Shown one piece after another: positions 22,241 to 61,193 of a stretch of DNA of 64,000 bases. This stretch comes from a virus. The translations under genes and the position numbers were made by a program. The number at the start of each line of letters is the position of its first letter. Positions within the stretch are counted from its first letter, which is position 1. A model generated the notes under the pieces. That model saw nothing but the letters and a program-made list of their open reading frames with translations. It did no database searches and was not told the origin of the DNA. The stretch covers positions 45,842-109,841 of IMG/VR virus record IMGVR_UViG_3300032092_000011; one strand, given 5' to 3'.

Positions 22241-23552
22241 TTTCGTATACGTGTTTTATAACTGGGAATCGAAGTGAATAACCACCATTTTGGTTTTGGC
22301 TCTCTTCAAAATACTGAACTGTGATTGTTTTACCAATGATTTCTCCAGGACTTGTGTAATAATGTCTACGTTGTTCTTGACTAAATCCACTACCAACCTG
22401 AACTCGACAACCTTTATGTTCAATTACAACATTTCGCAACATGATTTCTTCAACCTCTTTACCATCAACAATTACTCGGTGAGGACCCATATCAACATCA
22501 ACAACAACGTATTCTTCATCAAAGAATTGTTTAACTTTCATAATATCGTTGCTACGTTTTCCTTGGTATGCTGCATCTTTACGGAGCATTAAGCCTTCCC
22601 ATTTGTTTTGAGTTGCAACTGCAAGGTGTTGTTGAAATTCTTCTTCAGTATCAACTTTAACTTGCTCAAGTGGAGTAACAAAATCTAGTTCTCCAGCATA
22701 ATTTTCAAACCAAGCTTTCATATTTGCTTGGCGTTCACTAAAAGTACGAACTGAAGATTGTGAACTAAATTCGCCAATCGTTAGCATATCAAATACAACA
22801 AATCTTGGTCGACGAATGGTATGATTTTTGCGTTTGATTTCCTTCATGATACCTTGGAAATCTTCATTTCCGTTCTCATCCATGATACAAATTTCACCAT
22901 CAAGAACCAAACTTTGTGGAATTCGACTTAATTCTTGTTGAATAACTCCAAGGGTTTCGAATTCATTTCCAGCGCGTGAGTAGAATTTTACTTCTCCGTT
23001 AGGCTGCATAATACAAATACAACGACAACCATCTAATTTACGACTTACGAACCACCTGTCTGACCACTTTACTTTCTTCTTTGTATCATTATTATAAGTC
23101 GCAGCTAGTGCAACCTCGAATGTCGGAATACATCCAGGAATCACTTTATTAATCATTGATGTAGTTGATCGAGTTTTAAGGTTTCGATCAAGAATCATCC
23201 AAATTATCTCTTCGAATTCAGCATTTTCGCTAACAAACGTATTAACAGCTTGAATGGCGGAGTGGCCAGTGATATTACGATCACAGAGATCATCCAAAAG
23301 ACTAAAAATATTAGTATAGTTGTTTTGTAGACCACGTAGGTCGTTGCGTTTTTGACAATTTTTTGAAGTGACATAATATTGTTTAAAAGGCGAGTAAGTA
23401 TACTCTAGAGCCTTAACAACTTCAGGATATTGAGAAAACTCTTTAATAACTGCAAGTTTGTCAGTGTTAGAGTTTGTCTGGTTTGATTTGTTTACAAAGT
23501 CCTGTAGTAGTTGTAACGTTTTTTCCATATTTATTTTATTTGATAATTTCAA
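22224..23552 (-). CDS. ATP-dependent DNA ligase
   Basis: KLDG adenylation motif, LDGE, EGLMLR, VGSGFS, SLRFP OB-fold. Confidence 0.95.
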   Translation of the reverse strand: MKLSNKINMEKTLQLLQDFVNKSNQTNSNTDKLAVIKEFSQYPEVVKALEYTYSPFKQYYVTSKNCQKRNDLRGLQNNYTNIFSLLDDLCDRNITGHSAIQAVNTFVSENAEFEEIIWMILDRNLKTRSTTSMINKVIPGCIPTFEVALAATYNNDTKKKVKWSDRWFVSRKLDGCRCICIMQPNGEVKFYSRAGNEFETLGVIQQELSRIPQSLVLDGEICIMDENGNEDFQGIMKEIKRKNHTIRRPRFVVFDMLTIGEFSSQSSVRTFSERQANMKAWFENYAGELDFVTPLEQVKVDTEEEFQQHLAVATQNKWEGLMLRKDAAYQGKRSNDIMKVKQFFDEEYVVVDVDMGPHRVIVDGKEVEEIMLRNVVIEHKGCRVQVGSGFSQEQRRHYYTSPGEIIGKTITVQYFEESQNQNGGYSLRFPVIKHVYENGRTV

Positions 23553-29507: not shown

Positions 29508-29562
29508 GGGATGCTGTTTTGCTTTTTCCAATAAAAGTTTGTAAATTTGCTGAAAGCATCCC
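29508..29562 (-). ncRNA. GGAT-stem/CAGCAAA ncRNA family, short member
   Basis: GGGATGCT-TTCAGCAAAT...CTTTT-ATTGGA-AAAAG...AC-AGCATCCC. Confidence 0.6.
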
Positions 29563-30232: not shown

Positions 30233-30429
30233 GAATCCTCATCTGTTAAATCTAACTCAAGTTTAGTTAAGTGATTGTATACTTTAATAGAAGATCCCAT
30301 ACCGTACGAAGTAACTGACCATGTCATTAGGCCATATTCTCCGAACAGATCTTTAATCTTTTTAGCCCATTCATCAAATTTGGACTATTGTTCGTCGGAT
30401 AATTCGATTTGTATTACTTTATTTGACAT
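30226..30429 (-). pseudogene. small phage protein interrupted by an in-frame TAG
   Basis: MSNKVIQIELSDEQ*SKFDEWAKKIKDLFGEYG...ELDLTDEDSW; TAG at 30385-30387. Confidence 0.55.
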
Positions 30430-31096
30430 AAGCTTTTCTAAATAACATTACAACATCCATAGCATCTTCAATTGCATTGTGTGTTACCACATCTCCTAAT
30501 CCGGCACGTTCTTTACAAAGGCTAAGTCCAGGAGCGCAATCATCATTTTGCCAATCAATAAATAGGACAGATGGATCTAGAGTTCGGCCACGAGCTTTTA
30601 AACATTGCTTCCATCTTGGTAACCTTTCTAAAAACTTGTTATCAAAGTTGGCAAAGTTCTTACCAGCTGCATTAAAGTAAAAAGGTTTCATTTTGGAAGT
30701 TAAAGCTGGATATGATTTACCATTAACGATTTCAAAATGACCGGTTGGATCGTATTTACCATCTAGTGCACCATTATCATATAGGAATTGAAAGATTCTC
30801 TTTGCTACATCTTCTTCATAAAGATATTCACGACCAGTTCGTTGCTCAATTTCTTTACGTTCTTCATCAGTTCTAGCCAATTTGTATTCTAAAATGTCGG
30901 CAATTAGTTGACGATTCATATTAATCGCAAAGATTTCACCTTCAATTCTTTCACGAATAATGGCAATTTCTAGTTTTGGTAATTCTTCAATTGGTTTAAT
31001 ATCAATAGTATCTTCTACTACTAATCCAATTGATAATGTCTGTGTTGATTCGTTATCGATTCCGGTGGTTTCGATATCAATGCTTACGTATTTCAT
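30419..31096 (-). CDS. DEDDh 3'-5' exonuclease (oligoribonuclease-like)
   Basis: DIETTG, NFANFD, HNAIED. Confidence 0.8.
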   Translation of the reverse strand: MKYVSIDIETTGIDNESTQTLSIGLVVEDTIDIKPIEELPKLEIAIIRERIEGEIFAINMNRQLIADILEYKLARTDEERKEIEQRTGREYLYEEDVAKRIFQFLYDNGALDGKYDPTGHFEIVNGKSYPALTSKMKPFYFNAAGKNFANFDNKFLERLPRWKQCLKARGRTLDPSVLFIDWQNDDCAPGLSLCKERAGLGDVVTHNAIEDAMDVVMLFRKAYVK

Positions 31097-31686
31097 ATTA
31101 AAAATTTTAAGATTTCTTCTTTAACACCGCTCTGTTTGATTCCTTCTCGATTACGAGGAGTATGAACAAAATTTGTTAATCCTGGCTTTTTATCACTACT
31201 ATCTTTAGAAGCAAATCGATCGCCTAAGAATTTAACACTCATATCTAAATCATCAATGGCAACCCAATGTGTAATTTCTGGGTGATTTTCAACCCAATGA
31301 TTGATTTCCATGCTACGTTCTAGTTCTAATTCAGCTCTAAAACGAAAACCAGACCATTCGCTTGGATACAGGTCTTTAAACATATCAGTCGTTGCAATTG
31401 GAGCCTTAATAATACCTTGATTTAAGTAGTATTCTCCTAATTCTTGTAAATTAGCATGCAATCTCCAATCAGAACTAACTACAATTTCAGCTCCAGTTTG
31501 TTCTAAAATTTCATTTAAGATTTTAATTGCTTTTTTATCAAAATTATCGAATCTGTATTCGACTGGCATTTCACGAGTAGTCATGGATAGTTTCCTACCA
31601 CCCCATTCCTTTTGCTTTTTGAAGCGACCGCCCCAATTATCAGCAAGGCAAATTACGCCATCGTTATCTAAAAATACAATTTTCAT
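31093..31686 (-). CDS. HAD phosphatase, Swiss-Army-knife RNA-repair type
   Basis: FLDNDGV, VVSSDWR, VAIDD. Confidence 0.8.
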   Translation of the reverse strand: MKIVFLDNDGVICLADNWGGRFKKQKEWGGRKLSMTTREMPVEYRFDNFDKKAIKILNEILEQTGAEIVVSSDWRLHANLQELGEYYLNQGIIKAPIATTDMFKDLYPSEWSGFRFRAELELERSMEINHWVENHPEITHWVAIDDLDMSVKFLGDRFASKDSSDKKPGLTNFVHTPRNREGIKQSGVKEEILKFLI

Positions 31687-31768: not shown

Positions 31769-32803
31769 TTAATGATCTGCATTTTCGCCTTCTTCGCCTT
31801 TTGGCTTAATAAGTGCTTCGATTACGGCAATGATTGCCAGGTATTTTGCGGTTGCTGTAATAAAATGAACAACTGTACCGATTCCAGGAATTACGCTGAG
31901 AATTGCTCCTTCTGCTGCATGTTTTACTTGATATTCAGCAACAACACCGATGATTGATGCTAATACAGCAAATTCATAAGGTCCTGGTGCTCCAGCAAGC
32001 TGAGTTGCATAGAATGAGAATTTATTAAGTGCTCCACCTGCAACTTTTTCTGCTGCTTGTTTAACTTTATCTAAAAGGCTAAATGGAGGAATATGGTGCA
32101 TCTTATGAGCGATTGCAGAAACAAATGGAATTCCTCCACCCTCTTCAACAATATCAGTAAAATCAACTGTTCCATTAAGAATGGCTTCATTTAGTGAATG
32201 TACTATAGCTAATTCAAAACTTTCATTAGATTTATCATCTTCTTTAGCAGCTTCCATACCAGCTTTAGTTGCTTGTGAAACGAAACCAGACAGAGCCCAA
32301 GTTTTCATTGCTTTAGCAGAAGCACCTAATTGTTTTACCTCTTCAATTAAAGCATTTTTAGTTTTTTCTCCAGCACTATCGATTTTTTCTTTAATAACTT
32401 TACCTGCCTTTCCTGCTTCAGCTTTATAATAACTAGCTGCGCCATTCCATGCTGATTCAATTGCTTCTTTAATTTTGGTTGCAATTAATTTAACAACGCT
32501 TACAATATTTCCGCCTAATTTAATGATTTTTTCTTGAGCATCGGAAAGAGCATTTTTACCTTTAGTTTTAACAACATCTACCGCATTGTCAAATTTGGCT
32601 TTCATTTTAGCAACTAAACTTTCTTCATTAATAGTTTCAATAAAAGCTGTATCGAAAAGACCAGATTCAATAATAATTTGAGCTTCATTTAGAAAAGGCT
32701 TTACATCATTGAATTGAGAGATAATATTAAATAAAAGTTCTCTACGAGATTCTACCAAAGTGCTATGATTAACAAATTGGTTATAAGACATTAATTGGCT
32801 CAC
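31769..32803 (-). CDS. putative virion protein with hydrophobic C-terminal helices and CTS-like start
   Basis: MSQLMSYNQFVNH...LVE start, several L/I-x-E sites, late-type motif upstream. Confidence 0.55.
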   Translation of the reverse strand: MSQLMSYNQFVNHSTLVESRRELLFNIISQFNDVKPFLNEAQIIIESGLFDTAFIETINEESLVAKMKAKFDNAVDVVKTKGKNALSDAQEKIIKLGGNIVSVVKLIATKIKEAIESAWNGAASYYKAEAGKAGKVIKEKIDSAGEKTKNALIEEVKQLGASAKAMKTWALSGFVSQATKAGMEAAKEDDKSNESFELAIVHSLNEAILNGTVDFTDIVEEGGGIPFVSAIAHKMHHIPPFSLLDKVKQAAEKVAGGALNKFSFYATQLAGAPGPYEFAVLASIIGVVAEYQVKHAAEGAILSVIPGIGTVVHFITATAKYLAIIAVIEALIKPKGEEGENADH

Positions 32804-32852
32804 AGTAATTTACACAATTTTTATTTCTTTATATATTTCTAATATAAAATTG

Positions 32853-32925
32853 AGCGGAAGACGAGATTCGAACTCGCGACCCCAACCTTGGCAAGGTTGT
32901 GCTCTACCAGCTGAGCTACTTCCGC
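32853..32925 (-). tRNA. tRNA-Gly(GCC)
   Basis: CAACC-TTGCCAA-GGTTG. Confidence 0.92.
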
Positions 32926-32930
32926 ATTAT

Positions 32931-33018
32931 GGGTAGGATCAGACGTGTTCTGCATAGCAGGTCTGCCTACCGAGACCTCGTCGTTAACTTTCGTCAGAGC
33001 GTACCGAGACACTAGGTA
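32931..33018 (-). ncRNA. structured ncRNA candidate
   Basis: GC-rich spacer; AGGTCT/AGACCT hairpin whose loop GGTAGG can pair with downstream CCTACC; GTCTCGGTA occurs twice. Confidence 0.4.
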
Positions 33019-33026
33019 AAAATAAC

Positions 33027-33145
33027 AGGATGGGTTTTGTACGTGCTCTACCAACTGAGCTACTGGTCCCGAGAGATCAGGCCGGACTCGAACCGACGAC
33101 CACGAGGTTAACAGCCTAGATTTTATTATTTGCAGTAACCATCCT
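33027..33145 (-). ncRNA. circularly permuted tRNA-Asn(GTT)-like RNA within a GGAT stem (Y-RNA/YrlA-like)
   Basis: Order: closing stem, ACTGCAAAT, AGG-CTGTTAA-CCTCG, T-arm GTCGG-TTCGAGT-CCGGC, looped acceptor stem, D-arm TAGCTCAGTTGGTAGAGCA, closing stem. Confidence 0.75.
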
Positions 33146-33149
33146 TATT

Positions 33150-34115
33150 TTATATCTCATTATATGATTCTTCTAATATTAAATTAATTTCATCAAATAA
33201 TTCCTTATATTTTTCTTTAATCCCATTAAAATGATCTAAATCCGCTAATAATCTTAACAAAATAGAAATCCTAACATGCGGGTTATCATAAAGAAATTTC
33301 TTGCCCCAAATATGCTGTATCTCATCTTCTATTTTAAGACTCTCTTCGCTAGAACTAATGTTAGGAATCCATCTTTTATTCCAAATCATTTCTTCCATAT
33401 AGAGACATGCTCTATAAACATTTGGTTTAATAGTTCCATAGGATATTCCTAATTTTCTAGCTATAACAGGTAATAATCTTTGTTCAATAAAAAGAGAACT
33501 TCTTCTTTCAATTTTTTCATCATCTATTTCTTTATTGTATGATATTATCTTAATAGATTCGTCATACCAATTATCTATAAGTTCTCTTGTTCGATTTTTA
33601 AAATGAAGAATTGCAGCGTTTAATGGCCAATAATTCCAATTAAATCGATTAATATCTTCAAGATCTAGCCAATTAGAAGGATCATGGTACATGTTGTATT
33701 TTGAATCAGTATCAAAATTCTCTTTATGAAAGACATGGAAATCGTAACCCTTATCAATTAGATTTTTACCTTTAATCCATAAGTCAGTATCGAAGATACA
33801 AAACTCATTATACATTTTAGATAATTCTCTTGCTACAAATATTTTTGAAAAACTCCAATATCTAGATGCTTTATCTTTATGAGGCATTCTTGTTAATAAA
33901 TGTAAATCGATTCCATCATATTCTTCAAATATCTTGTATTTTAAAATAGAATCTAAATGCTCTTGATTTGCAATTAACCGCATTGGACCATAATTTTCTT
34001 TCCAATATAAAACAGAGACAAGTTGTATTAAAACGTTGATTGCATCGTATTTATTATCTTTAATCTCTCTAAATTTATTTTCAAATTTATAATAAACATG
34101 ATAGCCTCTAATCAT
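33150..34115 (-). CDS. glycosyltransferase-like protein (DxD; DUF6734-like)
   Basis: YWSFSKIF, IFDTDL, NAAIL, EQRLL, IQHIWG. Confidence 0.5.
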   Translation of the reverse strand: MIRGYHVYYKFENKFREIKDNKYDAINVLIQLVSVLYWKENYGPMRLIANQEHLDSILKYKIFEEYDGIDLHLLTRMPHKDKASRYWSFSKIFVARELSKMYNEFCIFDTDLWIKGKNLIDKGYDFHVFHKENFDTDSKYNMYHDPSNWLDLEDINRFNWNYWPLNAAILHFKNRTRELIDNWYDESIKIISYNKEIDDEKIERRSSLFIEQRLLPVIARKLGISYGTIKPNVYRACLYMEEMIWNKRWIPNISSSEESLKIEDEIQHIWGKKFLYDNPHVRISILLRLLADLDHFNGIKEKYKELFDEINLILEESYNEI

Positions 34116-34133
34116 TGTTCTATAATATATTTC

Positions 34134-34265
34134 GGATTCCTGTTATATGGACCAGCGCGTTTACCAATTTCGCCACCCTTCAGATTATTTATTCGATTGT
34201 TGAAGGGGTAGGACTCGAACCTACAGTATACCGGTTTCTTTCCTTAATTTTGCTGTAAGGAATCC
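34134..34265 (-). ncRNA. YrlA-like permuted tRNA-mimic RNA within a GGAT stem
   Basis: GGATTCCT-TACAGCAAA..., ACCGG, T-arm GTAGG-TTCGAGT-CCTAC, acceptor CCCTTCA-loop-TGAAGGG, D-arm TGGCGAAATTGGTAAACGC, CTGGT, ...AC-AGGAATCC; no anticodon loop. Confidence 0.75.
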
Positions 34266-34268
34266 ATT

Positions 34269-34345
34269 TGGCGGCTCGTACGGGACTCGAACCCGTGACC
34301 TTCGCCGTGACAGGGCGACATTGTAACCAACTCTACTAACGAGCC
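34269..34345 (-). tRNA. tRNA-Asp(GTC)
   Basis: TCGCC-CTGTCAC-GGCGA; encoded CCA. Confidence 0.92.
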
Positions 34346-34351
34346 AAATAG

Positions 34352-34425
34352 TAGACAATGATGGACTCGAACCATCGACCTCCTCGGTATCAGCGAGGCG
34401 CTCTAACCAACTGAGCTAAATGTCT
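34352..34425 (-). tRNA. tRNA-Ile(GAT)
   Basis: CCTCG-CTGATAC-CGAGG. Confidence 0.88.
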
Positions 34426-34429
34426 AAAT

Positions 34430-34543
34430 ATGAGAGGTCTCCGATGCCTCCTCTCGCGGTGGATATTTAATGACGTTTTGTATAATGCTGTATCAGCAAG
34501 TCGCAAGTTCCACTTATACGTCAAACTCGAATCGGTATTAAGG
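34430..34543 (-). ncRNA. pseudoknotted ncRNA candidate
   Basis: Helices TGACGT/ACGTCA, TGCTG/CAGCA, GAGAGG/CCTCTC, crossing GTGGA/TCCAC and CCGAT/ATCGG. Confidence 0.45.
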
Positions 34544-34617: not shown

Positions 34618-34624
34618 AAATTTG

Positions 34625-34696
34625 CTCCCCGGGTAGGATTTGAACCTACGACCACACGATTAACAGTCGCGTGCTCTACCACTGAGCTACCGAGGA
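34625..34696 (-). tRNA. tRNA-Asn(GTT)
   Basis: CGCGA-CTGTTAA-TCGTG. Confidence 0.92.
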
Positions 34697-35188: not shown

Positions 35189-35194
35189 AGATAC

Positions 35195-35252
35195 TGGATG
35201 CGCTTGTGTCAAAGTTAAAGTTTGATTTTGTAAAATTTGCTGCATGCATCCA
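35195..35252 (-). ncRNA. GGAT-stem/CAGCAAA ncRNA family, short member with anticodon-like hairpin
   Basis: TGGATGC-ATGCAGCAAAT...TCAAA-CTTTAAC-TTTGA...GCATCCA. Confidence 0.6.
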
Positions 35253-35258
35253 AAATTC

Positions 35259-36045: not shown

Positions 36046-39000
36046 TTATCCGCAATAAAGATAACCGTAGATTCCAGTTGCCTTACCTTCACTATCAAAA
36101 GTACAATCTTCCATACATTTACCCAATGTAAATGAATTTATAGTTTGTCTTTCCTCGTATTGAGGTGTTCCATTGTCAAATCCAATAATGACATATTCAA
36201 CTGGTTGTTTCATTGCGTATCCTGGTACGTCAGAAGAACATAGTAAATCTCCTTTTAGAACTGGACCATTTTGGTTACATACTTTTATACCTTGTAATCC
36301 TGTTTTAGCATCGAATGAATCTCCTAATGAAGCAACTCTCCATATACTTTTTTGATTTCTGTCCGCCAATGGTATTTTATTTCCAAATGAATCTCTATAT
36401 TGATAATCTTTTTCTGAAGTATCTTTTCCATTTATTAAGAATCTATCTAATGGACTTTCCTGTATAGAAAAATCAACTTCTTGCCATAAAATACCAACAA
36501 TTGCCGGGTCTTTTGCAGAAGATGCTTTAACTAATTCATTGTTTCCATCTAATTTAACAAGATCTCCAACTTCTAATATAACATCATTTCTTTTAGTATA
36601 TTGGTGAGACAATGTTGTTGCTATTGCTTCTCCATATGGTTGCTCACGAGGATCTGTACCTCCTCTGTAATTTACATAGTCATCTGCGAGTAATTCAAAA
36701 TCTTGTTGATATTGAATAAAATTAGTTTTCGTTGATTCAAAATCAGTTTTAAAAGCACCAAATCTTGTAGTTCCAATGTACGCATCATTTCTCATTTTAA
36801 GCATTTGACGTGCACCTAATTCCGGATCTTCAACGATGTCAACTTCAAAGAAATCATTCATTGGACTTCCGCCTACCGTAGCACCTGAAGTAATATCAAT
36901 ATCTCCTTTAAATGCTGCGGTACCGTCTGGTGCAATATAGAAGTTTTTAGCATTGATTGCACCTAGATCTAAGTTAATACCCATACCAGCCGTAGAATAA
37001 GTATTCCATGCTGATGTGTGATTTGCTGGGAAGTTACCATTCTTAATTATACCAGTAGTTATCTTTCCACCATCAATAGTAGTGGATGTTGTTAAAAACT
37101 GAGAAGTATCTGGAGCTGGACCTTGTGGACCTGTGGCTCCCTGAATAGATTTTGCAAAACTTTGAGTTTTAGTAAAGCTAAAACTTGCACCATTTGCTCT
37201 TTTTCCAGAAATCGTGTATGTTATCGATGCTGTATTAGCTGTCATATTATTATGATCGCCAATCGTTGCATAATTACCGCTATCAGTAATACTTCCCGGA
37301 GTAATTGAACTACCTGTTCTTGTTAAAGTCCATCTACTAGCAGAGGTTCCTGATCCATCATAAATTAATTCAGTAGCTCCTTCATATAATCTTATGGTAG
37401 TTCCTGAACCAGTATAAGTAACAACACCAGCACTAGTTGTAGGTAAAGTATGCGCTTCATTACTAAGAATTACTGTCATACCATCAGTACCAGGTGCTCC
37501 ATCGATACCATTAACGCCATCAACTCCGTCTCTACCATTAACGCCATCAACTCCGTCTCTACCATTAGTACCATTAGTACCATTAGCACCATTAGTACCA
37601 TTAGTTCCTGGTTTAATTCCAGACATTGTGATTTGGTCACGTGCTAAAACTGTACCTGTTGTACCGCCTTCTCTAATCTGTACTTCTATTTTGTCAGGCA
37701 TACTGTCAAAACTAGATTGTGGAGTATATGTGTATGTTGTAGAAGTACCATTTTGAACAGATACATCATTTTTAAAGAATTGATAATATACAGTTCCGCT
37801 TGTATTTAAAGCAGCTGCAGTAATTGTAGTGCTTGTAGGAGATGGAGTTGTTCCAGAAGTATTATATACAAATACCTGATCTACACAAGTTAGGTTTACA
37901 GCTCTTGCATTTGCTCCAGCTGCACCGTCTGCTCCGTCTGCACCGTCAACACCATTAGCACCTTGAATAGATTTTGCAAAACTTTGAGTTTTAGTAAAGC
38001 TAAAGCTTGTACCATTTGCTCTTTTTCCAGTAATAGCATACACTATAGAAGCTACGTTAGCAGTCATGTTGCTGTGATCGCCAATCGTTGCATAATTACC
38101 GCTATCAGTAATACTTCCCGGAGTAATTGAACTCCCTGTTCTTGTTAAAGTCCATTTACCAGCGGTAGAACCAGATCCATCATAGACTAATTCAGTAGCG
38201 CCTTCATATAATCTTATAGTAGTTCCTGAACCAGCATATGTAACTGTTCCTGTGTTTGTTGTTGGCAGAGTATGTGCTTCATTACTAAGAATTACTGTCA
38301 TACCATCAGTACCAGGTGCTCCATCGATACCATTAACGCCATCAACTCCGTCTCTACCATCAGTACCATCAGTACCATTAGTTCCTGGTTTAATTCCAGA
38401 CATTGTGATTTGGTCACGTGCTAAAACTGTGCCTGTTGTACCGCCTTCTCTAATCTGTACTTCTATCTTGTCAGGCATGCTAGCAAAACTAGATTGTGGA
38501 GTATATGTGTATGTTGATGCTGTCCCATTTTGAACAGATACATCATTTTTAAAGAATTGATAATATACAGTTCCGCTTGTATTTAAAGCAGCGGCTGTTA
38601 TTACTGAACTAACTGGTGAAGGATTTGTTCCGGACGCATCATATACAAATACCTGATCTACGCAAGTTAGGTTTACGGCTCTTGCATTTGCTCCAGCTGA
38701 ACCGTCTGCTCCGTCTGCTCCGTCAACACCGTCAGCTCCTTTGACTAAAACCCAATTATAAAGTGATGAATCTGTTGAATCAGCTTCGGTAAAATCAGTA
38801 TAAGTTCCCATATACTCTCTACCAGTCGGATCGCTTACGCTAAAATCAATAATTTGATTGCTGCCATTTTTATTTGCATATGCAATATGTAAATATGAAG
38901 TTTGTCCATCAACACCATTAACACCAGGAAGACCATTCTCACCATTAGCTCCATCAGCACCTTTAACTAATTGCCATTTCCATAAAGTACTTCCAGATGG

Positions 39001-41013
39001 TGCATCAGCAGCGGTTGTATCAACATAAGTACCTATGTATAATTTTCCGGCTGCGTTTTGACTAAAGCCTCCTCCAGAAGCATTGTCAGCATATGCAATG
39101 TGAAAATACGTTGAAACACCATCAGCGCCAGGAGCACCAGGAAGACCATCTGCACCGTCTAAACCATTAGTACCTGGGGCACCTTGTGGGCCAGGAGCTC
39201 CATCTACACCATTAGTACCAGCAGGACCTTGTGGACCGGCAGAAAAACTAACAGCTCCATTAAATGCAACTTGTCCATCGATAATAGAGAATGGAGTTAA
39301 TAATTGTCCATTTGGACCTCCAGTAGATACTTTAAAAGAATCTGCTGTAAATGAAATTGAACTACCTGTTTCATCAGCTCCTAATCTCATTCCAGCAACA
39401 TTACCATCAGCATTTACTTCTAGAGTATATTGTGCATTTACTTTATTAGTAAGAGCATTAATATCAGCACTCATTGATTGAGTTACTCCAGCAGTTTGTT
39501 CTTCTAATTCTGCTATTAAATTAGTTGTTGAAGTTACAGTTGCTTGATTAGCAGTTGCAATTGCTGAATCAATAACTGTTTTAAGAGCAGAAGACTGGCT
39601 AAAACCAGTTATTGATCCATTATCTATTGTATATTGTGCTTCTAGTGTATTTAATCTAGTTACAGTTGCTCCATCACCATTACTTAAAGAAGCAATCTCT
39701 TCACTAATATTTGTTAATGCCTCTGCTCTAATAGCAGCTTCTCCAGCAATTGCTTCAGCAATATCAACTTCGAATTGCGTACCTAAATTAGTAACTGAAA
39801 GAGCAACGGCTTCATTAGCAGTTGTTAATGCGGATATTGAACTTTCAACTCCTGCAATTGCCTGTGTTCTTAAAAGATTTTGATTATCTTCTAGGTCTGT
39901 TAAATCACTTGCAAATGAAGCACTTAAATTAGTTACTGCTTGTGCAGTTGCTGAATTAGCATCATTTAACGTAGTCAATGTTTGATTTATACTGGAAATT
40001 GCTGATGTTCTTGCTTGAGTTTCAATTCCTAAAAGTCGTGCTCTTTCAGCAGCTTCTTCAGCAATAGCACTAACTCTTTCAGCAGCTTCTGCTTCTAAAT
40101 CTTCAATTGTTGCTAATCCAGTTAAATCAGCACCTGGAATTGAACTTACAGCACTTTGAATTGCTGATGTTCTAGCCAATACTTCAGCTGCTAGAGCATT
40201 TTGTCTTGCTAATGCTTCAGTTGAAATTGCTCCAGTAATTTCACTAGTAAAAGATGTGCTTAAATCCGTAACTGATTGCGCAGTTGCTTCATTAGCATTA
40301 GATAGTGAAGTTAAAGTTTGATTAATATCTGAAATTGCAGATATTCTTAATGCTGCTTCAGAACTAACAGCAGCTTCAATTTCAGCTTCAAAAGAAGTAT
40401 TTATATTATTTACTGTTTCGGCAAGAGCTTCATTAGCATTAGATAATGAAGTTATAGTTTGATTTATATTTGAAATTGCAGCTGTTCTTGCTAATGTTTC
40501 AGCGCCAACTGCTGTTTCAATTTCAGCTTCAAAAGAAGTATTTATATTATTTACAGTTTGTGCGAGTGCTGAATTTGAATTAGCTAATGTTGTTAATTGA
40601 CTAGTTACGCTTGTTAATGCTTGTGTTCTAGCTGTTGTTTCTAAACCAATAACTCGGGCTCTTTCAGCTGCTTCTTCTAATAATCTACTATTAGTAACTA
40701 ATTCATTACCATTAACTTGCATATTACCATTAGCCATGCTAATTGAATTTGATCCAAGATAGATTGTGCTGTTACTTAAGTAAATATCTCTAAATCTTAG
40801 AGTTGGCGTACCTAAATCATGAATTTCATTTTGATCAGGTATAATACTAAATGCAACTTGTCCATTAAAAGACGAACCAGTCCCGCCTTCAAAACCATCA
40901 AGTAGTTCAGAAATTTCAGTAAGTTGCTGATTAATTGCAGCAAAATTATCGTTAAGCGTTTTACGCGAATCTTTTATACCATCGGTTCCTAGTAGTGGTG
41001 TTATTGAAGCCAT
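36046..41013 (-). CDS. tail fibre/host-specificity protein (coiled coil, gpJ/DUF1983-like segment, collagen repeats, duplicated domain, C-terminal chaperone-like domain)
   Basis: AQYTLEVNADGNVAGMRLG...FTADSFKV gpJ-like motif, YFHIAYAD repeats, G-X-Y runs, GDLLCSSDVPGYAMK C-terminus. Confidence 0.8.
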   Translation of the reverse strand: MASITPLLGTDGIKDSRKTLNDNFAAINQQLTEISELLDGFEGGTGSSFNGQVAFSIIPDQNEIHDLGTPTLRFRDIYLSNSTIYLGSNSISMANGNMQVNGNELVTNSRLLEEAAERARVIGLETTARTQALTSVTSQLTTLANSNSALAQTVNNINTSFEAEIETAVGAETLARTAAISNINQTITSLSNANEALAETVNNINTSFEAEIEAAVSSEAALRISAISDINQTLTSLSNANEATAQSVTDLSTSFTSEITGAISTEALARQNALAAEVLARTSAIQSAVSSIPGADLTGLATIEDLEAEAAERVSAIAEEAAERARLLGIETQARTSAISSINQTLTTLNDANSATAQAVTNLSASFASDLTDLEDNQNLLRTQAIAGVESSISALTTANEAVALSVTNLGTQFEVDIAEAIAGEAAIRAEALTNISEEIASLSNGDGATVTRLNTLEAQYTIDNGSITGFSQSSALKTVIDSAIATANQATVTSTTNLIAELEEQTAGVTQSMSADINALTNKVNAQYTLEVNADGNVAGMRLGADETGSSISFTADSFKVSTGGPNGQLLTPFSIIDGQVAFNGAVSFSAGPQGPAGTNGVDGAPGPQGAPGTNGLDGADGLPGAPGADGVSTYFHIAYADNASGGGFSQNAAGKLYIGTYVDTTAADAPSGSTLWKWQLVKGADGANGENGLPGVNGVDGQTSYLHIAYANKNGSNQIIDFSVSDPTGREYMGTYTDFTEADSTDSSLYNWVLVKGADGVDGADGADGSAGANARAVNLTCVDQVFVYDASGTNPSPVSSVITAAALNTSGTVYYQFFKNDVSVQNGTASTYTYTPQSSFASMPDKIEVQIREGGTTGTVLARDQITMSGIKPGTNGTDGTDGRDGVDGVNGIDGAPGTDGMTVILSNEAHTLPTTNTGTVTYAGSGTTIRLYEGATELVYDGSGSTAGKWTLTRTGSSITPGSITDSGNYATIGDHSNMTANVASIVYAITGKRANGTSFSFTKTQSFAKSIQGANGVDGADGADGAAGANARAVNLTCVDQVFVYNTSGTTPSPTSTTITAAALNTSGTVYYQFFKNDVSVQNGTSTTYTYTPQSSFDSMPDKIEVQIREGGTTGTVLARDQITMSGIKPGTNGTNGANGTNGTNGRDGVDGVNGRDGVDGVNGIDGAPGTDGMTVILSNEAHTLPTTSAGVVTYTGSGTTIRLYEGATELIYDGSGTSASRWTLTRTGSSITPGSITDSGNYATIGDHNNMTANTASITYTISGKRANGASFSFTKTQSFAKSIQGATGPQGPAPDTSQFLTTSTTIDGGKITTGIIKNGNFPANHTSAWNTYSTAGMGINLDLGAINAKNFYIAPDGTAAFKGDIDITSGATVGGSPMNDFFEVDIVEDPELGARQMLKMRNDAYIGTTRFGAFKTDFESTKTNFIQYQQDFELLADDYVNYRGGTDPREQPYGEAIATTLSHQYTKRNDVILEVGDLVKLDGNNELVKASSAKDPAIVGILWQEVDFSIQESPLDRFLINGKDTSEKDYQYRDSFGNKIPLADRNQKSIWRVASLGDSFDAKTGLQGIKVCNQNGPVLKGDLLCSSDVPGYAMKQPVEYVIIGFDNGTPQYEERQTINSFTLGKCMEDCTFDSEGKATGIYGYLYCG
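37142..38694. repeat. near-identical tandem duplication of about 750 bp inside the tail fibre gene
   Basis: Copies at about 37142-37917 and 37964-38694 encoding GANARAVNLTCVDQVF...TQSFAKSIQ. Confidence 0.85.
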
Positions 41014-58340: not shown

Positions 58341-58919
58341 CTAATAATACAGATCGACCAAATTTTTATTTAGGATTGAAATAGCCAAATTAGCAAGTTC
58401 ATCGGTTAGGCCATGGTTATGTGATGTTCGAATAAAATGTTCTCTTTGACCATATAACATATCAGAATCATCATCTAAAATGATATAATTCTTAACCTTA
58501 GCCTTATTAATATATTCTAATTGTTTCTCTTCACTCCAGTTGATTCTTTGAAAATCACCATAATTATCTAACCACCAATCAATTTCACAACCTCTTGGAA
58601 CTCTGTAACCATCCATATCTGGGTATGGTTTTTGACACCAAAGATGTGGAGTTAAGCCAATAACTTCACCTTTAACTCCAACTGAATCTAAAAGTTTTTG
58701 TAAAGACTCAACAGTTTCACCAGATCTCCAACTTGAACTAACTACAATTTTAGCTTCAGTTTTCTCAATGATTCTATTTAATCTTTCTACAGCTCTTGGG
58801 TCAAATTCATAGAAAGGATATTGTGCGTTGACACTGTCCATTGCGACATTATCCCTTCTATAAATATACCAATCTTGTGAGTTTAAAACTCCATCAATAT
58901 CTAAAAAGATAACTTTCAT
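58341..58919 (-). CDS. HAD phosphatase, Swiss-Army-knife RNA-repair type
   Basis: FLDIDGVLN, VVSSSWR, RGCEI, ILDDDSDM. Confidence 0.85.
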   Translation of the reverse strand: MKVIFLDIDGVLNSQDWYIYRRDNVAMDSVNAQYPFYEFDPRAVERLNRIIEKTEAKIVVSSSWRSGETVESLQKLLDSVGVKGEVIGLTPHLWCQKPYPDMDGYRVPRGCEIDWWLDNYGDFQRINWSEEKQLEYINKAKVKNYIILDDDSDMLYGQREHFIRTSHNHGLTDELANLAISILNKNLVDLYY

Positions 58920-59932
58920 TATTTTTCATTTAGTAAGAAGGTATTAGAGATTGCCTTAAAACTAATAGTTCGATCCATTGTTCTAAATACTACTCCCTCT
59001 CTATCAAATTTATCATTTAAGACTGATTTTCCATCGGCAAAAGCTAGAGCCTCATCAATTGTTTTTGGCAACTTCATGGTCAAATTAGTTAAAACTGGAA
59101 CAGTGTCTAATTTAAACTCATGTTTCATAATCGATAAAAACATTGGTAAACCATAGTAAGTTTGAGAATCAATATCAAATACATTAAAGAATTTCACAGT
59201 TTGTCCTTTGATTCCGTATGGATTTCCCTGTATGCCTTCTCCAATTAATTCTCCTTGAATTGCCAAATTCCTAGCAGAAGCTCGTAATTTCTCTTCAATC
59301 TTCAATTCTCTAGCAACTTTCCAAAAAGTATTCTCTTCAGTTTCGGCTAAATCTAAATTTCTAGAACAAACACCAAATTCTCCATTATTAATATAGAATG
59401 TTGCAGAACTACCATCTAGCTTTTCAGTTACATAAAAATCTAGTTCTTGTTCAATCCAATTATCATAGAATTTAGTCAAGTTTTGTACTCTCTCCTCATC
59501 AGTTTTATGTAAGAAAGATGGAAAGTTACCACGAACTTTTCCTGCCAATTCTGCTGGAATTGGTGGTTCATATTTAACAATGCCCAGCATTTCAGTAACG
59601 TCCATACCTTCACTTACAACTTCGCCTAATGGAAGTACATGAATTGGTAATAATAAGCCTTGGCTTAATTGACCTCTTAGTCTAATTGTTTTAAGACGGA
59701 AACCTTCCTGCCCAGCCATTTTCTTATATGAACTCTTACGTAAAAATTCAAACTCTTCTTTAATAGGCAAGAATGAGTCAATCTCGCAATAAATACAAAA
59801 GTCTCCAACTTTGTATTCTCCTTTTTTAACAACAACATCCCAGTTATTGATTCTTGCAACTTCAATAGCATCAGCACCTTCAATCGGTCTGATTTCAGCT
59901 ACTAGTTGAATACTTGCTAATTTTCTTTCCAT
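58919..59932 (-). CDS. RNA ligase, DRB0094 (Rnl5) family
   Basis: RKLASI...IEGADAIE, KTDEERVQN, TEKLDGSS, QGELIG, REGVV, SFKAISN. Confidence 0.9.
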   Translation of the reverse strand: MERKLASIQLVAEIRPIEGADAIEVARINNWDVVVKKGEYKVGDFCIYCEIDSFLPIKEEFEFLRKSSYKKMAGQEGFRLKTIRLRGQLSQGLLLPIHVLPLGEVVSEGMDVTEMLGIVKYEPPIPAELAGKVRGNFPSFLHKTDEERVQNLTKFYDNWIEQELDFYVTEKLDGSSATFYINNGEFGVCSRNLDLAETEENTFWKVARELKIEEKLRASARNLAIQGELIGEGIQGNPYGIKGQTVKFFNVFDIDSQTYYGLPMFLSIMKHEFKLDTVPVLTNLTMKLPKTIDEALAFADGKSVLNDKFDREGVVFRTMDRTISFKAISNTFLLNEK

Positions 59933-60092: not shown

Positions 60093-61193
60093 TTATTCAT
60101 TAAAAGGTTTTTCATACTTAGGTTTAACCAATTTCCAAATTATTTCTGAGTAATCTTTTTCATCTAACATTTTAAACAAGATTCCAGGATGCATAAAGTT
60201 TTTAGAAAATTGAGCAAATAACTTTCTAGTTCCTAATCTTTTAATTGAATCAAAATGATCTAAATATTCATTTTCTAATTTAGAGTATTCTAATCGAATA
60301 TTTTTTTCAGTTCTTTTAACCCAGTTATAAAACTCATCAGGTACATCTTTTAACATTTCTTCTGGTAATTTACCAAACTTCATTAAGTTTTCCCAAATAT
60401 CATAAGAAGATACATTTGTCAAGATACGGTGCAAAGCAACATAATCTTCAAATTTAATTTTAACTCGAGTATTTGATGGAAAGAAACGCAAAACATAACC
60501 TTCTTCGTTCTGTTTATTTAAAGCCTTTAACTTTTTATACAAATCATGGCCTAAATGCTCTTTAAAGATTTGTTCAGTTTTTACAATATCTTTGGCTTTA
60601 ATACCAGACATTTTAAAGTAGGCTTTTGCAGTAGTCCAATGTAACTCATCTTGGTCTGACTCTTTCCAACCGTTAAAAGTCCAGTTAATTACAGCACCCA
60701 GGAAGACAAGATTTTCTTGTTTATAATTAACTACAATTCGATTCTCTGGGTAGATAATTTCACAAATATAGGCCACTGAAGGTTCAAATACATCTAAGAT
60801 ATATTTTGACTTTAAGATTTCCATGCCACGAATGGCTTGATCCGAAGTAAAAGAACCTCGAGTTGCCATAATCCATTCGCCATTATAATTAAATAAGATA
60901 CCTAATGAACCGTCCATTTTATCTTGGACATATACATATTCTGAACTCAACCACGGTACATCATTCGGTATCTCTTCGTAGTTAAAAAACTTTGAAAATG
61001 GTTTAACTATCACCTTACCGGTCACATCATCAGTAATCACGCCTCGACACGACAGAGTAACCTCGTCCCAATGAGATTCATATTGAGTTGATTGTGAATA
61101 GTTGTATATAGACAATGGCAAAGACGGATGGGTCTGTTTAATTAACCATCCATCTTCAACATATTTGTCTAATATCTTTTTGTCTAATTTCAT
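60093..61193 (-). CDS. RNA ligase, T4 Rnl1-like
   Basis: CRGVI, KFFNYEE, KMDGSLG, ATRGSF, EGYV, RVKIK. Confidence 0.9.
   Translation of the reverse strand: MKLDKKILDKYVEDGWLIKQTHPSLPLSIYNYSQSTQYESHWDEVTLSCRGVITDDVTGKVIVKPFSKFFNYEEIPNDVPWLSSEYVYVQDKMDGSLGILFNYNGEWIMATRGSFTSDQAIRGMEILKSKYILDVFEPSVAYICEIIYPENRIVVNYKQENLVFLGAVINWTFNGWKESDQDELHWTTAKAYFKMSGIKAKDIVKTEQIFKEHLGHDLYKKLKALNKQNEEGYVLRFFPSNTRVKIKFEDYVALHRILTNVSSYDIWENLMKFGKLPEEMLKDVPDEFYNWVKRTEKNIRLEYSKLENEYLDHFDSIKRLGTRKLFAQFSKNFMHPGILFKMLDEKDYSEIIWKLVKPKYEKPFNE

What the first reader, a model, noticed from the sequence alone, without database searches (positions are those of the whole stretch)
33027..33145. Complete circularly permuted tRNA-Asn held in a non-tRNA closing stem
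Seen: reading 5'-3' on the minus strand there is AGGATGG, TTACTGCAAAT.., AGG-CTGTTAA-CCTCG, TGGTC, a T-arm, the acceptor 3' strand, a CTCG loop, the acceptor 5' strand, a D-arm, A-CG, ..CCATCCT. Joining the final CG to the initial AGG rebuilds the anticodon stem CGAGG/CCTCG, so the tRNA is permuted between positions 28 and 29, keeps a GTT anticodon loop and has a closed acceptor end. A normal tRNA-Asn(GTT) is also present at 34625-34696. Known: permuted tRNA genes occur in some algae and archaea, and bacterial YrlA Y RNAs have a permuted tRNA domain without an anticodon loop. Inference: either an unchargeable decoy for anticodon nucleases, a Y-RNA-like adaptor, or a precursor circularised by the phage RNA ligases.
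Basis: partly seen in the sequence, partly recalled or inferred. Interest (0 to 1): 0.85.

Follow-up and report, generated by a model that had tools for sequence, protein, structure and literature searches.

The report
Phage Y-RNA-like complete tRNA mimic
This 119-base phage RNA gene holds every part of a tRNA in rotated order on a conserved "handle", and that handle is found across hundreds of phages together with a Ro60-shaped protein, so it is most likely a partner RNA of that protein and not a working tRNA.

Summary
On the minus strand, 33145-33027 contains a 7-bp closing stem, UUAC-CUGCAAA, an anticodon-like hairpin (GUU), a T arm, a loop-closed acceptor stem and a D arm. Rejoined at 28/29, ARAGORN calls it tRNA-Asn.

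It is not a chance arrangement or a remnant. Six relatives keep it while the acceptor stem changes by paired substitutions. At least 87 distinct viral elements share the architecture.

In 57 of those 87, a 5-bp "anticodon stem" is built from two strands (2.8 expected by shuffling). It carries a 7-nt loop with U33, A37 and A38.

It scores below Rfam's YrlA cut-off (43.5 vs 69 bits), lacks the Ro60-binding motif, and no TROVE gene is present.

Its handle family co-occurs with a DUF2828-DUF7788 protein: 42/47 records against 2/49 controls. That protein's model folds like Ro60.

This 42%-complete record lacks the gene. Three relatives have it, each followed by handle RNAs.

The window holds four handle cassettes with different cargo.

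Best reading: a Y-RNA-like adaptor for a divergent Ro60. Neither expression nor binding has been tested.

This scan has noted the same system before on other DNA (85 notes). I found no paper or Rfam family describing it.

The parts
33139..33145 (-). Closing stem, 5' strand AGGAUGG
   Evidence: Pairs 7/7 with 33027-33033. Invariant in 6 relatives. Family-wide this stem differs in sequence but stays paired: 80 distinct 5' strands, median 8 bp.
33129..33138 (-). Handle motif UUAC-CUGCAAA, a C(A/U)GCAA motif 3 nt after the stem
   Evidence: The same motif sits in the same place in three other cassettes of the window and in 95 viral elements. It fits the five near-invariant positions of the Dictyostelium Class I 11-nt motif (PMC7919456, PMC5054030).
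33118..33128 (-). A/U-rich 5' linker
   Evidence: Variable in sequence among relatives.
33105..33117 (-). Anticodon-like hairpin AGG-CUGUUAA-CCU (positions 29-41, triplet GUU)
   Evidence: Across 30 class-(3,2) elements, all 3 pairs change on both sides (rows were chosen for pairing). Loop statistics: U33 46/49, A37 41/49, A38 47/49.
33103..33104 (-). CG (positions 42-43), pairing with 33042-33043 to complete a 5-bp composite anticodon stem
   Evidence: Composite stem found in 57/87 elements against 2.8 in shuffles.
33098..33102 (-). Variable loop UGGUC
   Evidence: NGGUC is nearly invariant in the family.
33081..33097 (-). T arm GUCGG-UUCGAGU-CCGGC
   Evidence: Compensatory changes seen in relative L247.
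33063..33080 (-). Acceptor stem closed by a 4-nt loop: CUGAUCU-CUCG-GGACCAG
   Evidence: 6 of 7 pairs change on both sides among 7 relatives, and 7 of 7 among 30 family members.
33044..33062 (-). UA, D arm GCUC-AGUUGGUA-GAGC, then A26
33042..33043 (-). CG (positions 27-28), partner of 33103-33104
   Evidence: Both pairs change on both sides across the family.
33034..33041 (-). A-rich 3' linker UACAAAAC
   Evidence: A-rich before the 3' strand across the family.
33026..33033 (-). Closing stem, 3' strand CCAUCCU, plus the following G (…CCUG)
   Evidence: A G follows the stem in most family members. Class I RNAs end in stem-CUG(U) (PMC7919456, PMC5054030).
29508..29562 (-). Sister cassette 1: GGGAUGC-UUU-CAGCAAA, about 30 nt of cargo with no tRNA part, then GCAUCCC
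   Evidence: fold z -3.15. Best Rfam Class I hit in the record, 18.2 bits, below cut-off.
34133..34266 (-). Sister cassette 3: GGAUUCC-UUA-CAGCAAA carrying a tRNA body. It has a 5-bp stem ACCGG/CUGGU made between the two strands, a T arm, a 7-bp acceptor with an 18-nt loop and a D arm. It has no anticodon loop.
35194..35253 (-). Sister cassette 4: GGAUGC-AUG-CAGCAAA carrying only a 5-bp/7-nt anticodon-like hairpin UCAAA-CUUUAAC-UUUGA

Best explanation
The element is a small non-coding RNA gene of the Y-RNA kind. It lies among the phage's tRNA genes, and no promoter or terminator of its own was detected. It has two modules. The first is a handle: a closing stem joining the 5' and 3' ends, then UUAC-C(A/U)GCAA, A-rich linkers, and a G after the 3' strand. 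The second is a cargo, here a complete tRNA look-alike. The cargo has a D arm, a T arm, a variable loop, an acceptor stem sealed by a tetraloop, and a 5-bp anticodon stem assembled from two strands (3 bp of hairpin plus 2 bp) under a 7-nt GUU loop. By analogy with Ro60 and its Y RNAs, the handle would be bound by a phage-encoded Ro60-shaped protein of the DUF2828-DUF7788 family. The tRNA-shaped cargo would then dock a tRNA-recognising factor onto that protein; candidates are a nuclease, a repair or modification enzyme, or a host anticodon nuclease. It cannot be charged, because it has no free CCA end. The window's four cassettes would give one protein four different specificities: no tRNA part, whole tRNA, tRNA body alone, anticodon arm alone. 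Shown here by computation: the anatomy, its conservation and covariation, the family, the co-occurrence with the protein gene, and the protein's Ro60-like predicted fold. Inferred and untested: transcription and processing, handle-protein binding, what the cargo recruits, and that this particular phage carries the protein gene.
For: Anatomy. YrlA topology: full-length Rfam match at 43.5 bits, E 1e-8. Conservation: six relatives keep the handle, hairpin, T arm and D arm almost unchanged, while 6 of 7 acceptor pairs and 2 of 5 T-stem pairs change on both sides. Family: 95 closed-acceptor elements with the motif, 87 distinct. Closing stem of 7 bp or more in 88%, against 29% with swapped partners. 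Composite 5-bp stem in 57/87 against 2.8 +/- 1.6 in shuffles. Protein link: a roughly 470-aa DUF2828+DUF7788 gene (phrog_850) lies on the same strand, mostly within 1 kb, in 36/92 loci. DUF7788 is present in 42/47 family records and in 27/28 of those at least 90% complete. The comparison is 2/29 tRNA-cluster controls and 0/20 TROVE-type and other closed-acceptor records over the cut-off. The AlphaFold model (pLDDT 82) has as its 13 best PDB matches full-length Ro60/TROVE structures, E 1e-9 to 1e-4, TM up to 0.6. Relatives of this phage (G011, G012, G013) each encode the protein. In G012 and G013 its stop codon is followed by two handle cassettes and a terminator. Handle cassettes also flank the gene in Escherichia phage EC6, Listeria phage LP-125 and Mycobacterium phage Jobypre. 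Four cassettes share the handle in this window. RNA-repair genes are present in the record: Rnl1-type and Rnl2-type (Pfam RNA_ligase) ligases and HAD_SAK_2. Published support: abundant transcripts lie upstream of the Rsr-like gene of a P100-like Listeria phage and were guessed to be Y RNAs (PMC12282133).
Against: No DUF2828, DUF7788 or TROVE gene is present in this 110-kb record. At the locus where relative G013 has the gene (downstream of Rnl1), this phage has an Rnl2-like gene instead. Its presence here therefore rests on the record being 42% complete, and on G012 having the gene 2-4 kb beyond the homologue of this record's last, truncated ORF. The C(A/U)GCAA motif was part of my search patterns, so its invariance in that set is circular; the motif was first seen in the motif-free scan. 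The minimum-free-energy fold is not better than shuffles. Co-occurrence is not binding.
Confidence: 0.68

Rival explanations
1. It is a stand-alone tRNA decoy or sponge. The closed, unchargeable tRNA-Asn-like body with an exposed anticodon loop would compete with host or phage tRNAs for an anticodon nuclease or another tRNA-binding enzyme, without needing a Ro60-like protein. The handle would only stabilise the RNA.
For: The anticodon-loop signature is conserved (U33, U36, A37, A38) with varied triplets: UGU, UUU, GUU, GCU. The phage carries 25 tRNAs and RNA ligases of the kind used against tRNA cleavage. No partner protein gene is present on this record.
Against: The handle is conserved far beyond what stability needs. 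It is shared by cassettes with no tRNA part and tracks the DUF7788 gene. Close relatives carry AUU, which is not a natural anticodon. A decoy role could also be the cargo's job within the RNP, so this reading overlaps the best explanation.
Confidence: 0.12
2. It is a canonical YrlA that binds a TROVE-type Ro60 (Rsr), encoded in the missing part of the phage genome or by the host.
For: It has YrlA topology and a full-length Rfam match. It has a UUAC where YrlA has its conserved YUAY (PMC4201824). TROVE-type elements with the same tRNA-like core occur in other viral contigs, and 5 of 5 of those records have TROVE.
Against: Its score of 43.5 bits is below the 69-bit cut-off. It has no GNCGAAN0-1G motif. 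TROVE is absent from this record and from 10 of 10 handle-family records, including a complete one, whereas DUF7788 is present in 42/47.
Confidence: 0.07
3. It is a true permuted tRNA gene. The transcript would be opened at the acceptor loop (RNase P and 3' trimming plus CCA addition), or circularised and re-cut using the phage RNA ligases, to yield a working tRNA-Asn.
For: All tRNA parts are present and the rejoined sequence scores as tRNA-Asn. Rnl1-type and Rnl2-type (Pfam RNA_ligase) ligases are encoded. M. smegmatis YrlA is an RNase P substrate (10.1101/312249). In 8 of 92 family members NCCA follows a 7-bp acceptor strand.
Against: Here the acceptor is sealed by CUCG, and by UUCG in relatives, with no discriminator or CCA. 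Acceptor length varies from 7 to 8 bp or more. Two relatives have the triplet AUU. A normal tRNA-Asn already exists. The junction carries a conserved handle that is shared with cassettes lacking any tRNA body.
Confidence: 0.04
4. It is a decayed junction of two tandem tRNA genes (the 3' half of one and the 5' half of the next) with no function.
For: Plain tandem tRNAs give weak YrlA matches (24.7-26.2 bits elsewhere in this record). Many hits of my first pattern scan were such junctions.
Against: The two acceptor strands pair with each other and covary among relatives. The closing stem and composite anticodon stem are conserved and covary in 87 distinct elements. The score is about 17 bits above the tandem-tRNA hits.
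Confidence: 0.02

Closest known systems
Bacterial and mycobacteriophage YrlA Y RNAs with Ro60/Rsr (Rfam RF02553; Chen et al. 2014, PMC4201824; Wang et al. 2018, 10.1101/312249)
   Same: A terminal stem joins the two ends. The tRNA domain is permuted in the order T arm, loop-closed acceptor, D arm. A YUAY-like UUAC follows the stem. There is an extra stem-loop upstream of the T arm, which Chen et al. call 'V'. The RNA is linked to a ring-plus-vWA protein and to RNA-repair genes.
   Different: It scores below the Rfam cut-off. It has no GNCGAAN0-1G Ro60 site; a C(A/U)GCAA handle takes its place. The partner family is DUF2828-DUF7788, not Pfam TROVE. The extra stem-loop has exact anticodon-arm geometry: a 5-bp composite stem and a 7-nt loop with U33, A37 and A38.
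Thermus phage phiLo Ro60 with Yrl1/Yrl2 (PMC12135203; PDB 9KOP, 9L5Y)
   Same: A phage-encoded Ro60-fold protein with phage-encoded partner RNAs next to its gene. It is among the best structural matches of the DUF2828-DUF7788 model. It suggests a mechanism, since it recruits host PNPase.
   Different: phiLo Ro60 is a TROVE protein whose RNAs carry a CGAA motif and no tRNA-like cargo. Nothing equivalent has been tested for the DUF2828 branch.
Class I RNAs of dictyostelid social amoebae (Rfam RF01414; PMC7919456; PMC5054030)
   Same: A short stem joins the 5' and 3' ends, with CCUUACAGCAA directly after the 5' strand, a variable interior, and a 3' strand followed by UG. Cassette 3 of this window has CCUUACAGCAA exactly. 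The element under study has GGUUACUGCAA, matching all five near-invariant positions, and ends …CCUG.
   Different: Class I RNAs are eukaryotic, 42-65 nt long, and carry no tRNA-like cargo. The Rfam model scores the window's cassettes at only 18.2 and 15.9 bits against a 41.5-bit cut-off, and it does not hit this element. Whether the likeness reflects common descent was not tested here.
Permuted tRNA genes of Cyanidioschyzon merolae and some archaea (from established knowledge; not re-read here)
   Same: The 3' half of the tRNA is encoded upstream of the 5' half.
   Different: Those genes mature through a circular intermediate into ordinary chargeable tRNAs. Here the acceptor end is sealed by a tetraloop and the junction carries a conserved handle.

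Membership tests
YrlA (Rfam RF02553) | Reaches the Rfam gathering score of 69 bits | tested here: not met
   43.5 bits, E 1.2e-8, full model 1-114. Not listed at the gathering threshold.
YrlA (Rfam RF02553) | tRNA-like domain in the order T arm, closed acceptor-like stem-loop, D arm, enclosed by a terminal stem | tested here: met
   Covariation.
YrlA (Rfam RF02553) | GNCGAAN0-1G motif near the 5' end, the proposed Ro60 contact (PMC4201824) | tested here: not met
   The 5' part reads AGGAUGGUUACUGCAAAUAAUAAAAUCU, with no such motif.
YrlA (Rfam RF02553) | Encoded within about 4 kb of a TROVE Ro60 gene on the same strand (PMC4201824) | tested here: not met
   No TROVE match in the 110-kb record. 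0 of 10 handle-family records have one. The record is only 42% complete.
   7-bp stem, UUA, then CUGCAAA, …CAAAAC before the 3' strand, and G at 33026. Family statistics.
   Absent from this fragment. Present in 3 of 3 large relatives and 42/47 family records. In G012 it lies 2-4 kb beyond the point where this record ends.
   No RNA-protein tool was available. Needs gel shift, RIP or CLIP.
Permuted tRNA genes (C. merolae type) | Matures to a linear, CCA-ended, chargeable tRNA; the sequence between the acceptor 3' and 5' strands is removable leader/trailer | tested here: inconclusive
   Only a 4-nt loop (CUCG) with no discriminator or CCA, and UUCG in relatives, argue against this. Processing itself is not testable here.
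Dictyostelium Class I RNA (Rfam RF01414) | Reaches the Rfam gathering score of 41.5 bits | tested here: not met
   The element is not hit. Cassettes 1 and 3 are the two best hits in the record, at 18.2 and 15.9 bits.
Dictyostelium Class I RNA (Rfam RF01414) | Stem joining the ends, plus an 11-nt motif with T3, C6, C9, A10, A11 next to the 5' strand; the 3' strand is followed by UG (PMC7919456, PMC5054030) | tested here: met
   GGUUACUGCAA (33140-33130) fits all five positions, and the 3' end reads CCAUCC-UG. This is a resemblance in form only.

The most novel reading that the evidence does not exclude
The phage encodes a set of handle RNAs that present a whole tRNA, a tRNA body, or an anticodon arm on a Ro60-like ring. 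Together they would form a counter-defence particle that captures host tRNA-targeting nucleases or hands damaged tRNAs to the phage ligases. The same handle-protein pair may also explain the long-unexplained Class I RNAs of social amoebae.
Probability: 0.2. Interest if true: 0.9.

Novelty: new variant of a known kind. Interest (0 to 1): 0.72.

Why it matters
Ro60 and its Y RNAs are a conserved RNA-surveillance particle, but what the tRNA-like part of bacterial Y RNAs recruits is still unknown. This element belongs to a second, apparently undescribed branch with a different handle and a different Ro60-fold protein (DUF2828-DUF7788). That protein is present in 710 sequenced phages, including Felix O1-like, P100-like and mycobacteriophages that can be grown in the laboratory. 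The cargo is modular: nothing, tRNA body, anticodon arm, or, as here, a complete tRNA with a rebuilt 5-bp anticodon stem. That modularity gives direct handles for experiments on what each part binds. It would give a large domain-of-unknown-function family a likely RNA partner. It also suggests a testable link to the Class I RNAs of Dictyostelium and to phage defence against tRNA-cleaving immunity.

Tried and rejected
- The megablast of 32000-34500 against named phages found only tRNA-Gly matches.
- The neighbouring 321-aa ORF gave no relatives in viral contigs and no Pfam or PHROG family. It is nevertheless syntenic in relative L242.
- Folding the single sequence: the minimum-free-energy structure does not reproduce the cloverleaf and is no better than shuffles (z -0.38). 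Thermodynamics alone is uninformative here.
- Rfam at gathering thresholds lists nothing at the site.
- TROVE, DUF2828, DUF7788 and RtcB searches of the record were negative.
- A sequence-profile search of the PDB with the DUF2828-DUF7788 alignment gave only weak vWA-domain matches. The Ro60 relationship needed the fold search.
- The promoter and terminator scan found no more sites than in shuffles and nothing next to the element.
- A simple stem-plus-motif scanner gives many chance hits in this AT-rich genome (29 against about 11 in shuffles). Only the four GC-containing, intergenic cassettes in the tRNA region were accepted.
- The literature searches for DUF2828 and for the motif returned nothing relevant except the Dictyostelium pattern.
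- Derivation from the phage's own tRNA-Asn was considered and rejected: the body is equally close to several tRNAs.

Full report
**What is there.**
On the minus strand, 33145-33027 reads as follows.
- Closing stem 5' strand AGGAUGG, then UUAC-CUGCAAA and an A/U-rich linker.
- AGG-CUGUUAA-CCU, then CG, then the variable loop UGGUC.
- T arm GUCGG-UUCGAGU-CCGGC.
- Acceptor CUGAUCU-CUCG-GGACCAG, then UA.
- D arm GCUC-AGUUGGUA-GAGC, then A, CG and UACAAAAC.
- Closing stem 3' strand CCAUCCU, followed by G.

The two CG dinucleotides pair. Together with AGG/CCU they make a 5-bp anticodon stem that is broken between tRNA positions 28 and 29. The acceptor stem has one G-U and one A.C and is closed by four bases.

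ARAGORN and the Rfam tRNA model do not call the element in its native order. After rejoining at 28/29, the 72 nt are called tRNA-Asn(gtt). The ordinary tRNA-Asn is at 34624/5-34696.

**Is it more than chance?**
A permissive Rfam scan gives a full-length YrlA match at 43.5 bits, E 1e-8, below the 69-bit cut-off. Plain tandem tRNAs in the same record reach only 24.7-26.2 bits.

Pattern scans of viral contigs recovered six close relatives: L060, L241, L242, L244, L247 and L248. In them the handle, hairpin, T arm and D arm are nearly invariant. The acceptor hairpin is rewritten with pairing kept: 6 of 7 pairs change on both sides. In L247 the T stem also changes on both sides at 2 of 5 pairs.

In L060 the element follows a tRNA and not an ORF, so it is an independent unit. 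L242 is syntenic with this window across 32135-34106.

**A large family.**
After filtering for closed acceptors I had 95 elements, 87 of them distinct.
- Closing stem: nearly all have one directly before the motif, with a median of 8 bp. It is 7 bp or more in 88%, against 29% when 3' regions are swapped between elements. There are 80 distinct 5' strands.
- Composite stem: the five bases before the variable loop (positions 39-43) are paired partly by the strand just 5' of a 7-nt loop and partly by the strand after the D arm. The two parts add up to at least 5 bp in 57 of 87, against 2.8 +/- 1.6 (maximum 9) in 2000 shuffles. This involves 36 different 3' strands.
- Break point: it moves between classes. 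3+2 (20 elements, including ours), 2+3 (18) and 0+5 (7) are the commonest classes; full 5-bp (2) and 4+1 (1) hairpins also occur. This is what one expects if a 5-bp anticodon stem is the selected shape.
- Loop: among 49 elements with a hairpin it has U33 in 46, a purine at 37 in 48 (A in 41), A38 in 47 and U36 in 35. The triplets are UGU 12, UUU 8, GUU 4, GCU 4 and AUU 3.
- Tool count: on 30 class-3+2 cargos, 99.5% of cells are paired and 15 of 21 pairs change on both sides. These rows were chosen for pairing in the two anticodon-stem helices, so the shuffle test above is the unbiased figure.

A caveat on circularity: the CAGCAA motif was part of the patterns. However, it first appeared in the motif-free scan.

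**Relation to YrlA.**
Chen et al. 2014 define YrlA by four features (PMC4201824):
- a terminal stem;
- a GNCGAAN0-1G motif;
- a tRNA-like domain;
- a position within 4 kb of a Ro60 (TROVE) gene.

They also note a fourth, less conserved 'V' stem-loop upstream of the T arm. The Salmonella structure paper states that YrlA lacks the anticodon loop (10.1101/312249).

In my first scan, a second set of closed elements carries GGUUAC followed by a mostly complete 5-bp/7-nt hairpin. Five of five of their records encode TROVE. The anticodon-arm shape is therefore not unique to this element. It is probably what was called 'V'.

What sets this element apart is the handle and its protein partner. It has no GNCGAA motif. 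No TROVE gene is found in this record or in 10 of 10 handle-family records, one of them complete.

**The partner protein.**
Clustering ORFs around 92 loci gave one dominant neighbour. It occurs in 36 loci, always on the same strand, mostly within 1 kb, and is about 470 aa. It carries Pfam DUF2828 and DUF7788, a DxSxS MIDAS motif, and belongs to phrog_850 'RNA-binding protein'.
- Fold: its AlphaFold model (pLDDT 82) has as its 13 best PDB matches full-length Ro60/TROVE structures: Xenopus and human Ro60, Deinococcus Rsr and Thermus phage phiLo Ro60. E-values run from 1e-9 to 1e-4 and TM reaches about 0.6.
- Co-occurrence: DUF7788 is present in 42 of 47 handle-family records, and in 27 of 28 that are at least 90% complete. 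The comparison is 2 of 29 tRNA-cluster records without a detected element, and 0 of 20 TROVE-type or other closed-acceptor records over the cut-off.
- Spread: the protein is found in 710 named phages. Mycobacteriophage annotators call it 'Ro-like RNA binding protein'.
- Cassettes beside the gene: Escherichia phage EC6 has four, Listeria phage LP-125 has three (80-340 nt upstream), and Mycobacterium phage Jobypre has three. Jobypre's three carry no tRNA part, a tRNA body and an anticodon arm respectively.
- Expression elsewhere: a transcriptome study of a P100-like Listeria phage reports three highly transcribed regions upstream of its Rsr-like gene and guesses they are Y RNAs (PMC12282133). 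I did not map those regions onto the cassettes.

**This phage.**
The window holds four cassettes with the same handle, all on the minus strand inside the tRNA region:

| Cassette | Coordinates | Cargo |
|---|---|---|
| 1 | 29508-29562 | no tRNA part |
| 2 | 33027-33145 | whole tRNA mimic (this finding) |
| 3 | 34133-34266 | tRNA body, no anticodon loop |
| 4 | 35194-35253 | anticodon arm only, triplet UUA |

The record is a 110-kb fragment judged 42% complete. It has no DUF2828 or DUF7788 gene. The three large relatives each have one.
- In G012 and G013 the gene is followed directly by two handle cassettes and a terminator.
- In G012 it lies 2-4 kb beyond the homologue of this record's last, truncated ORF.
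- In G013 it sits downstream of Rnl1, where this phage has an Rnl2-like gene.

Whether this phage has the gene is therefore open. The record does encode an Rnl1-type and an Rnl2-type (Pfam RNA_ligase) RNA ligase and a HAD domain of 'Swiss Army Knife' RNA-repair proteins.

**How it most likely works.**
The reasoning is by analogy with Ro60 and Y RNAs, including phage phiLo, where Ro60-Yrl complexes bind host PNPase (PMC12135203). The handle would bind the Ro60-like ring. The tRNA-shaped cargo would bring a tRNA-recognising factor to it. Four cargos would give four specificities. This is inference: neither transcription nor binding was tested.

The decoy idea could be the cargo's role within such a particle.

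A working permuted tRNA is unlikely, for four reasons:
- the acceptor is sealed (CUCG or UUCG);
- its length varies;
- two relatives carry AUU;
- the handle is shared with cassettes that have no tRNA body.

The tRNA-Asn label rests on the triplet alone.

**Resemblance to Class I RNAs.**
These RNAs have a short stem joining the ends, an 11-nt motif next to the 5' strand with T3, C6, C9, A10 and A11 nearly invariant, and a 3' CUGU (PMC7919456). The published search pattern is GTTGRCCTTACAGCAA … GTCAACTG (PMC5054030).

Cassette 3 contains CCUUACAGCAA exactly. This element has GGUUACUGCAA and ends CCAUCC-UG. The Rfam Class I model ranks cassettes 1 and 3 first in the record, but at only 18.2 and 15.9 bits. 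This is a likeness of form, not membership.

**Verdict.**
This is a real, conserved RNA gene. It is a Y-RNA-like complete tRNA mimic on a C(A/U)GCAA handle. It is best read as a partner RNA of a divergent Ro60-like protein.

It is a new variant of a known kind. The same system has been noted many times by this scan on other DNA. I found no paper or Rfam family describing it.

Noticed in passing
window 32926-33026 (-), especially 32962-33013: The 100-nt spacer between the element and tRNA-Gly holds two copies of GUCUCGGUA(C/G)GC. A 52-nt stretch of it is 98% identical to relative L242, while the flanks are about 70% identical. L247 keeps the start of it too. It may be another small RNA or a processing signal. 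Its single-sequence fold is not significant.
   Followed up: partly
window 29508-29562, 34133-34266, 35194-35253 (all -): Three further cassettes share the same GGAU… stem and CAGCAAA handle. Their cargos are, respectively, no tRNA part, a tRNA body without an anticodon loop, and a lone 5-bp/7-nt anticodon-like hairpin with triplet UUA.
   Followed up: partly
window 58919-59932, 60093-61193, 31093-31686, 30419-31096 (all -): An RNA-repair gene set is present: an Rnl2-type ligase (Pfam RNA_ligase), a T4 Rnl1-type ligase, a HAD_SAK_2 domain protein and an exonuclease-like ORF. There is no RtcB. A third, weaker RNA_ligase match lies at about 22530-23057.
   Followed up: partly
viral loci L152, L155, L162, L169, L172, L198, L212, L219: In 8 of 92 family members the acceptor loop begins with NCCA right after a 7-bp strand. 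That is about six times the background rate of CCA in these stretches. It hints that cargos are captured from tRNA genes, or that some members can be opened to a CCA end.
   Followed up: no
viral loci L030, L042, L044, L048, L083, L100, L105, L113: TROVE-linked YrlA-type elements in viral contigs carry a full 5-bp stem with a 7-nt U33…A37A38 loop after GGUUAC. The 'V' stem-loop of phage YrlA RNAs therefore looks like an anticodon arm.
   Followed up: partly
L027 10043-10127 and L032 2217-2301 (412-kb viral contigs): A CAGCAAAU… stretch is followed by GG-CUGUUAA-CC, a T arm and an acceptor 3' strand, which then runs straight into an ordinary tRNA. This may be a handle fused to a tRNA 3' half.
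   Followed up: no
L258 5849-7060 (Listeria phage LP-125): An RtcB-like tRNA-splicing ligase lies 1.3 kb downstream of the DUF2828 gene and its three handle cassettes. This echoes the rsr-yrlBA-rtcBA arrangement of Salmonella.
   Followed up: no
window 36046-41013 (-): A 1655-aa ORF splits the 25-tRNA region into two blocks. It was not annotated here.
   Followed up: no
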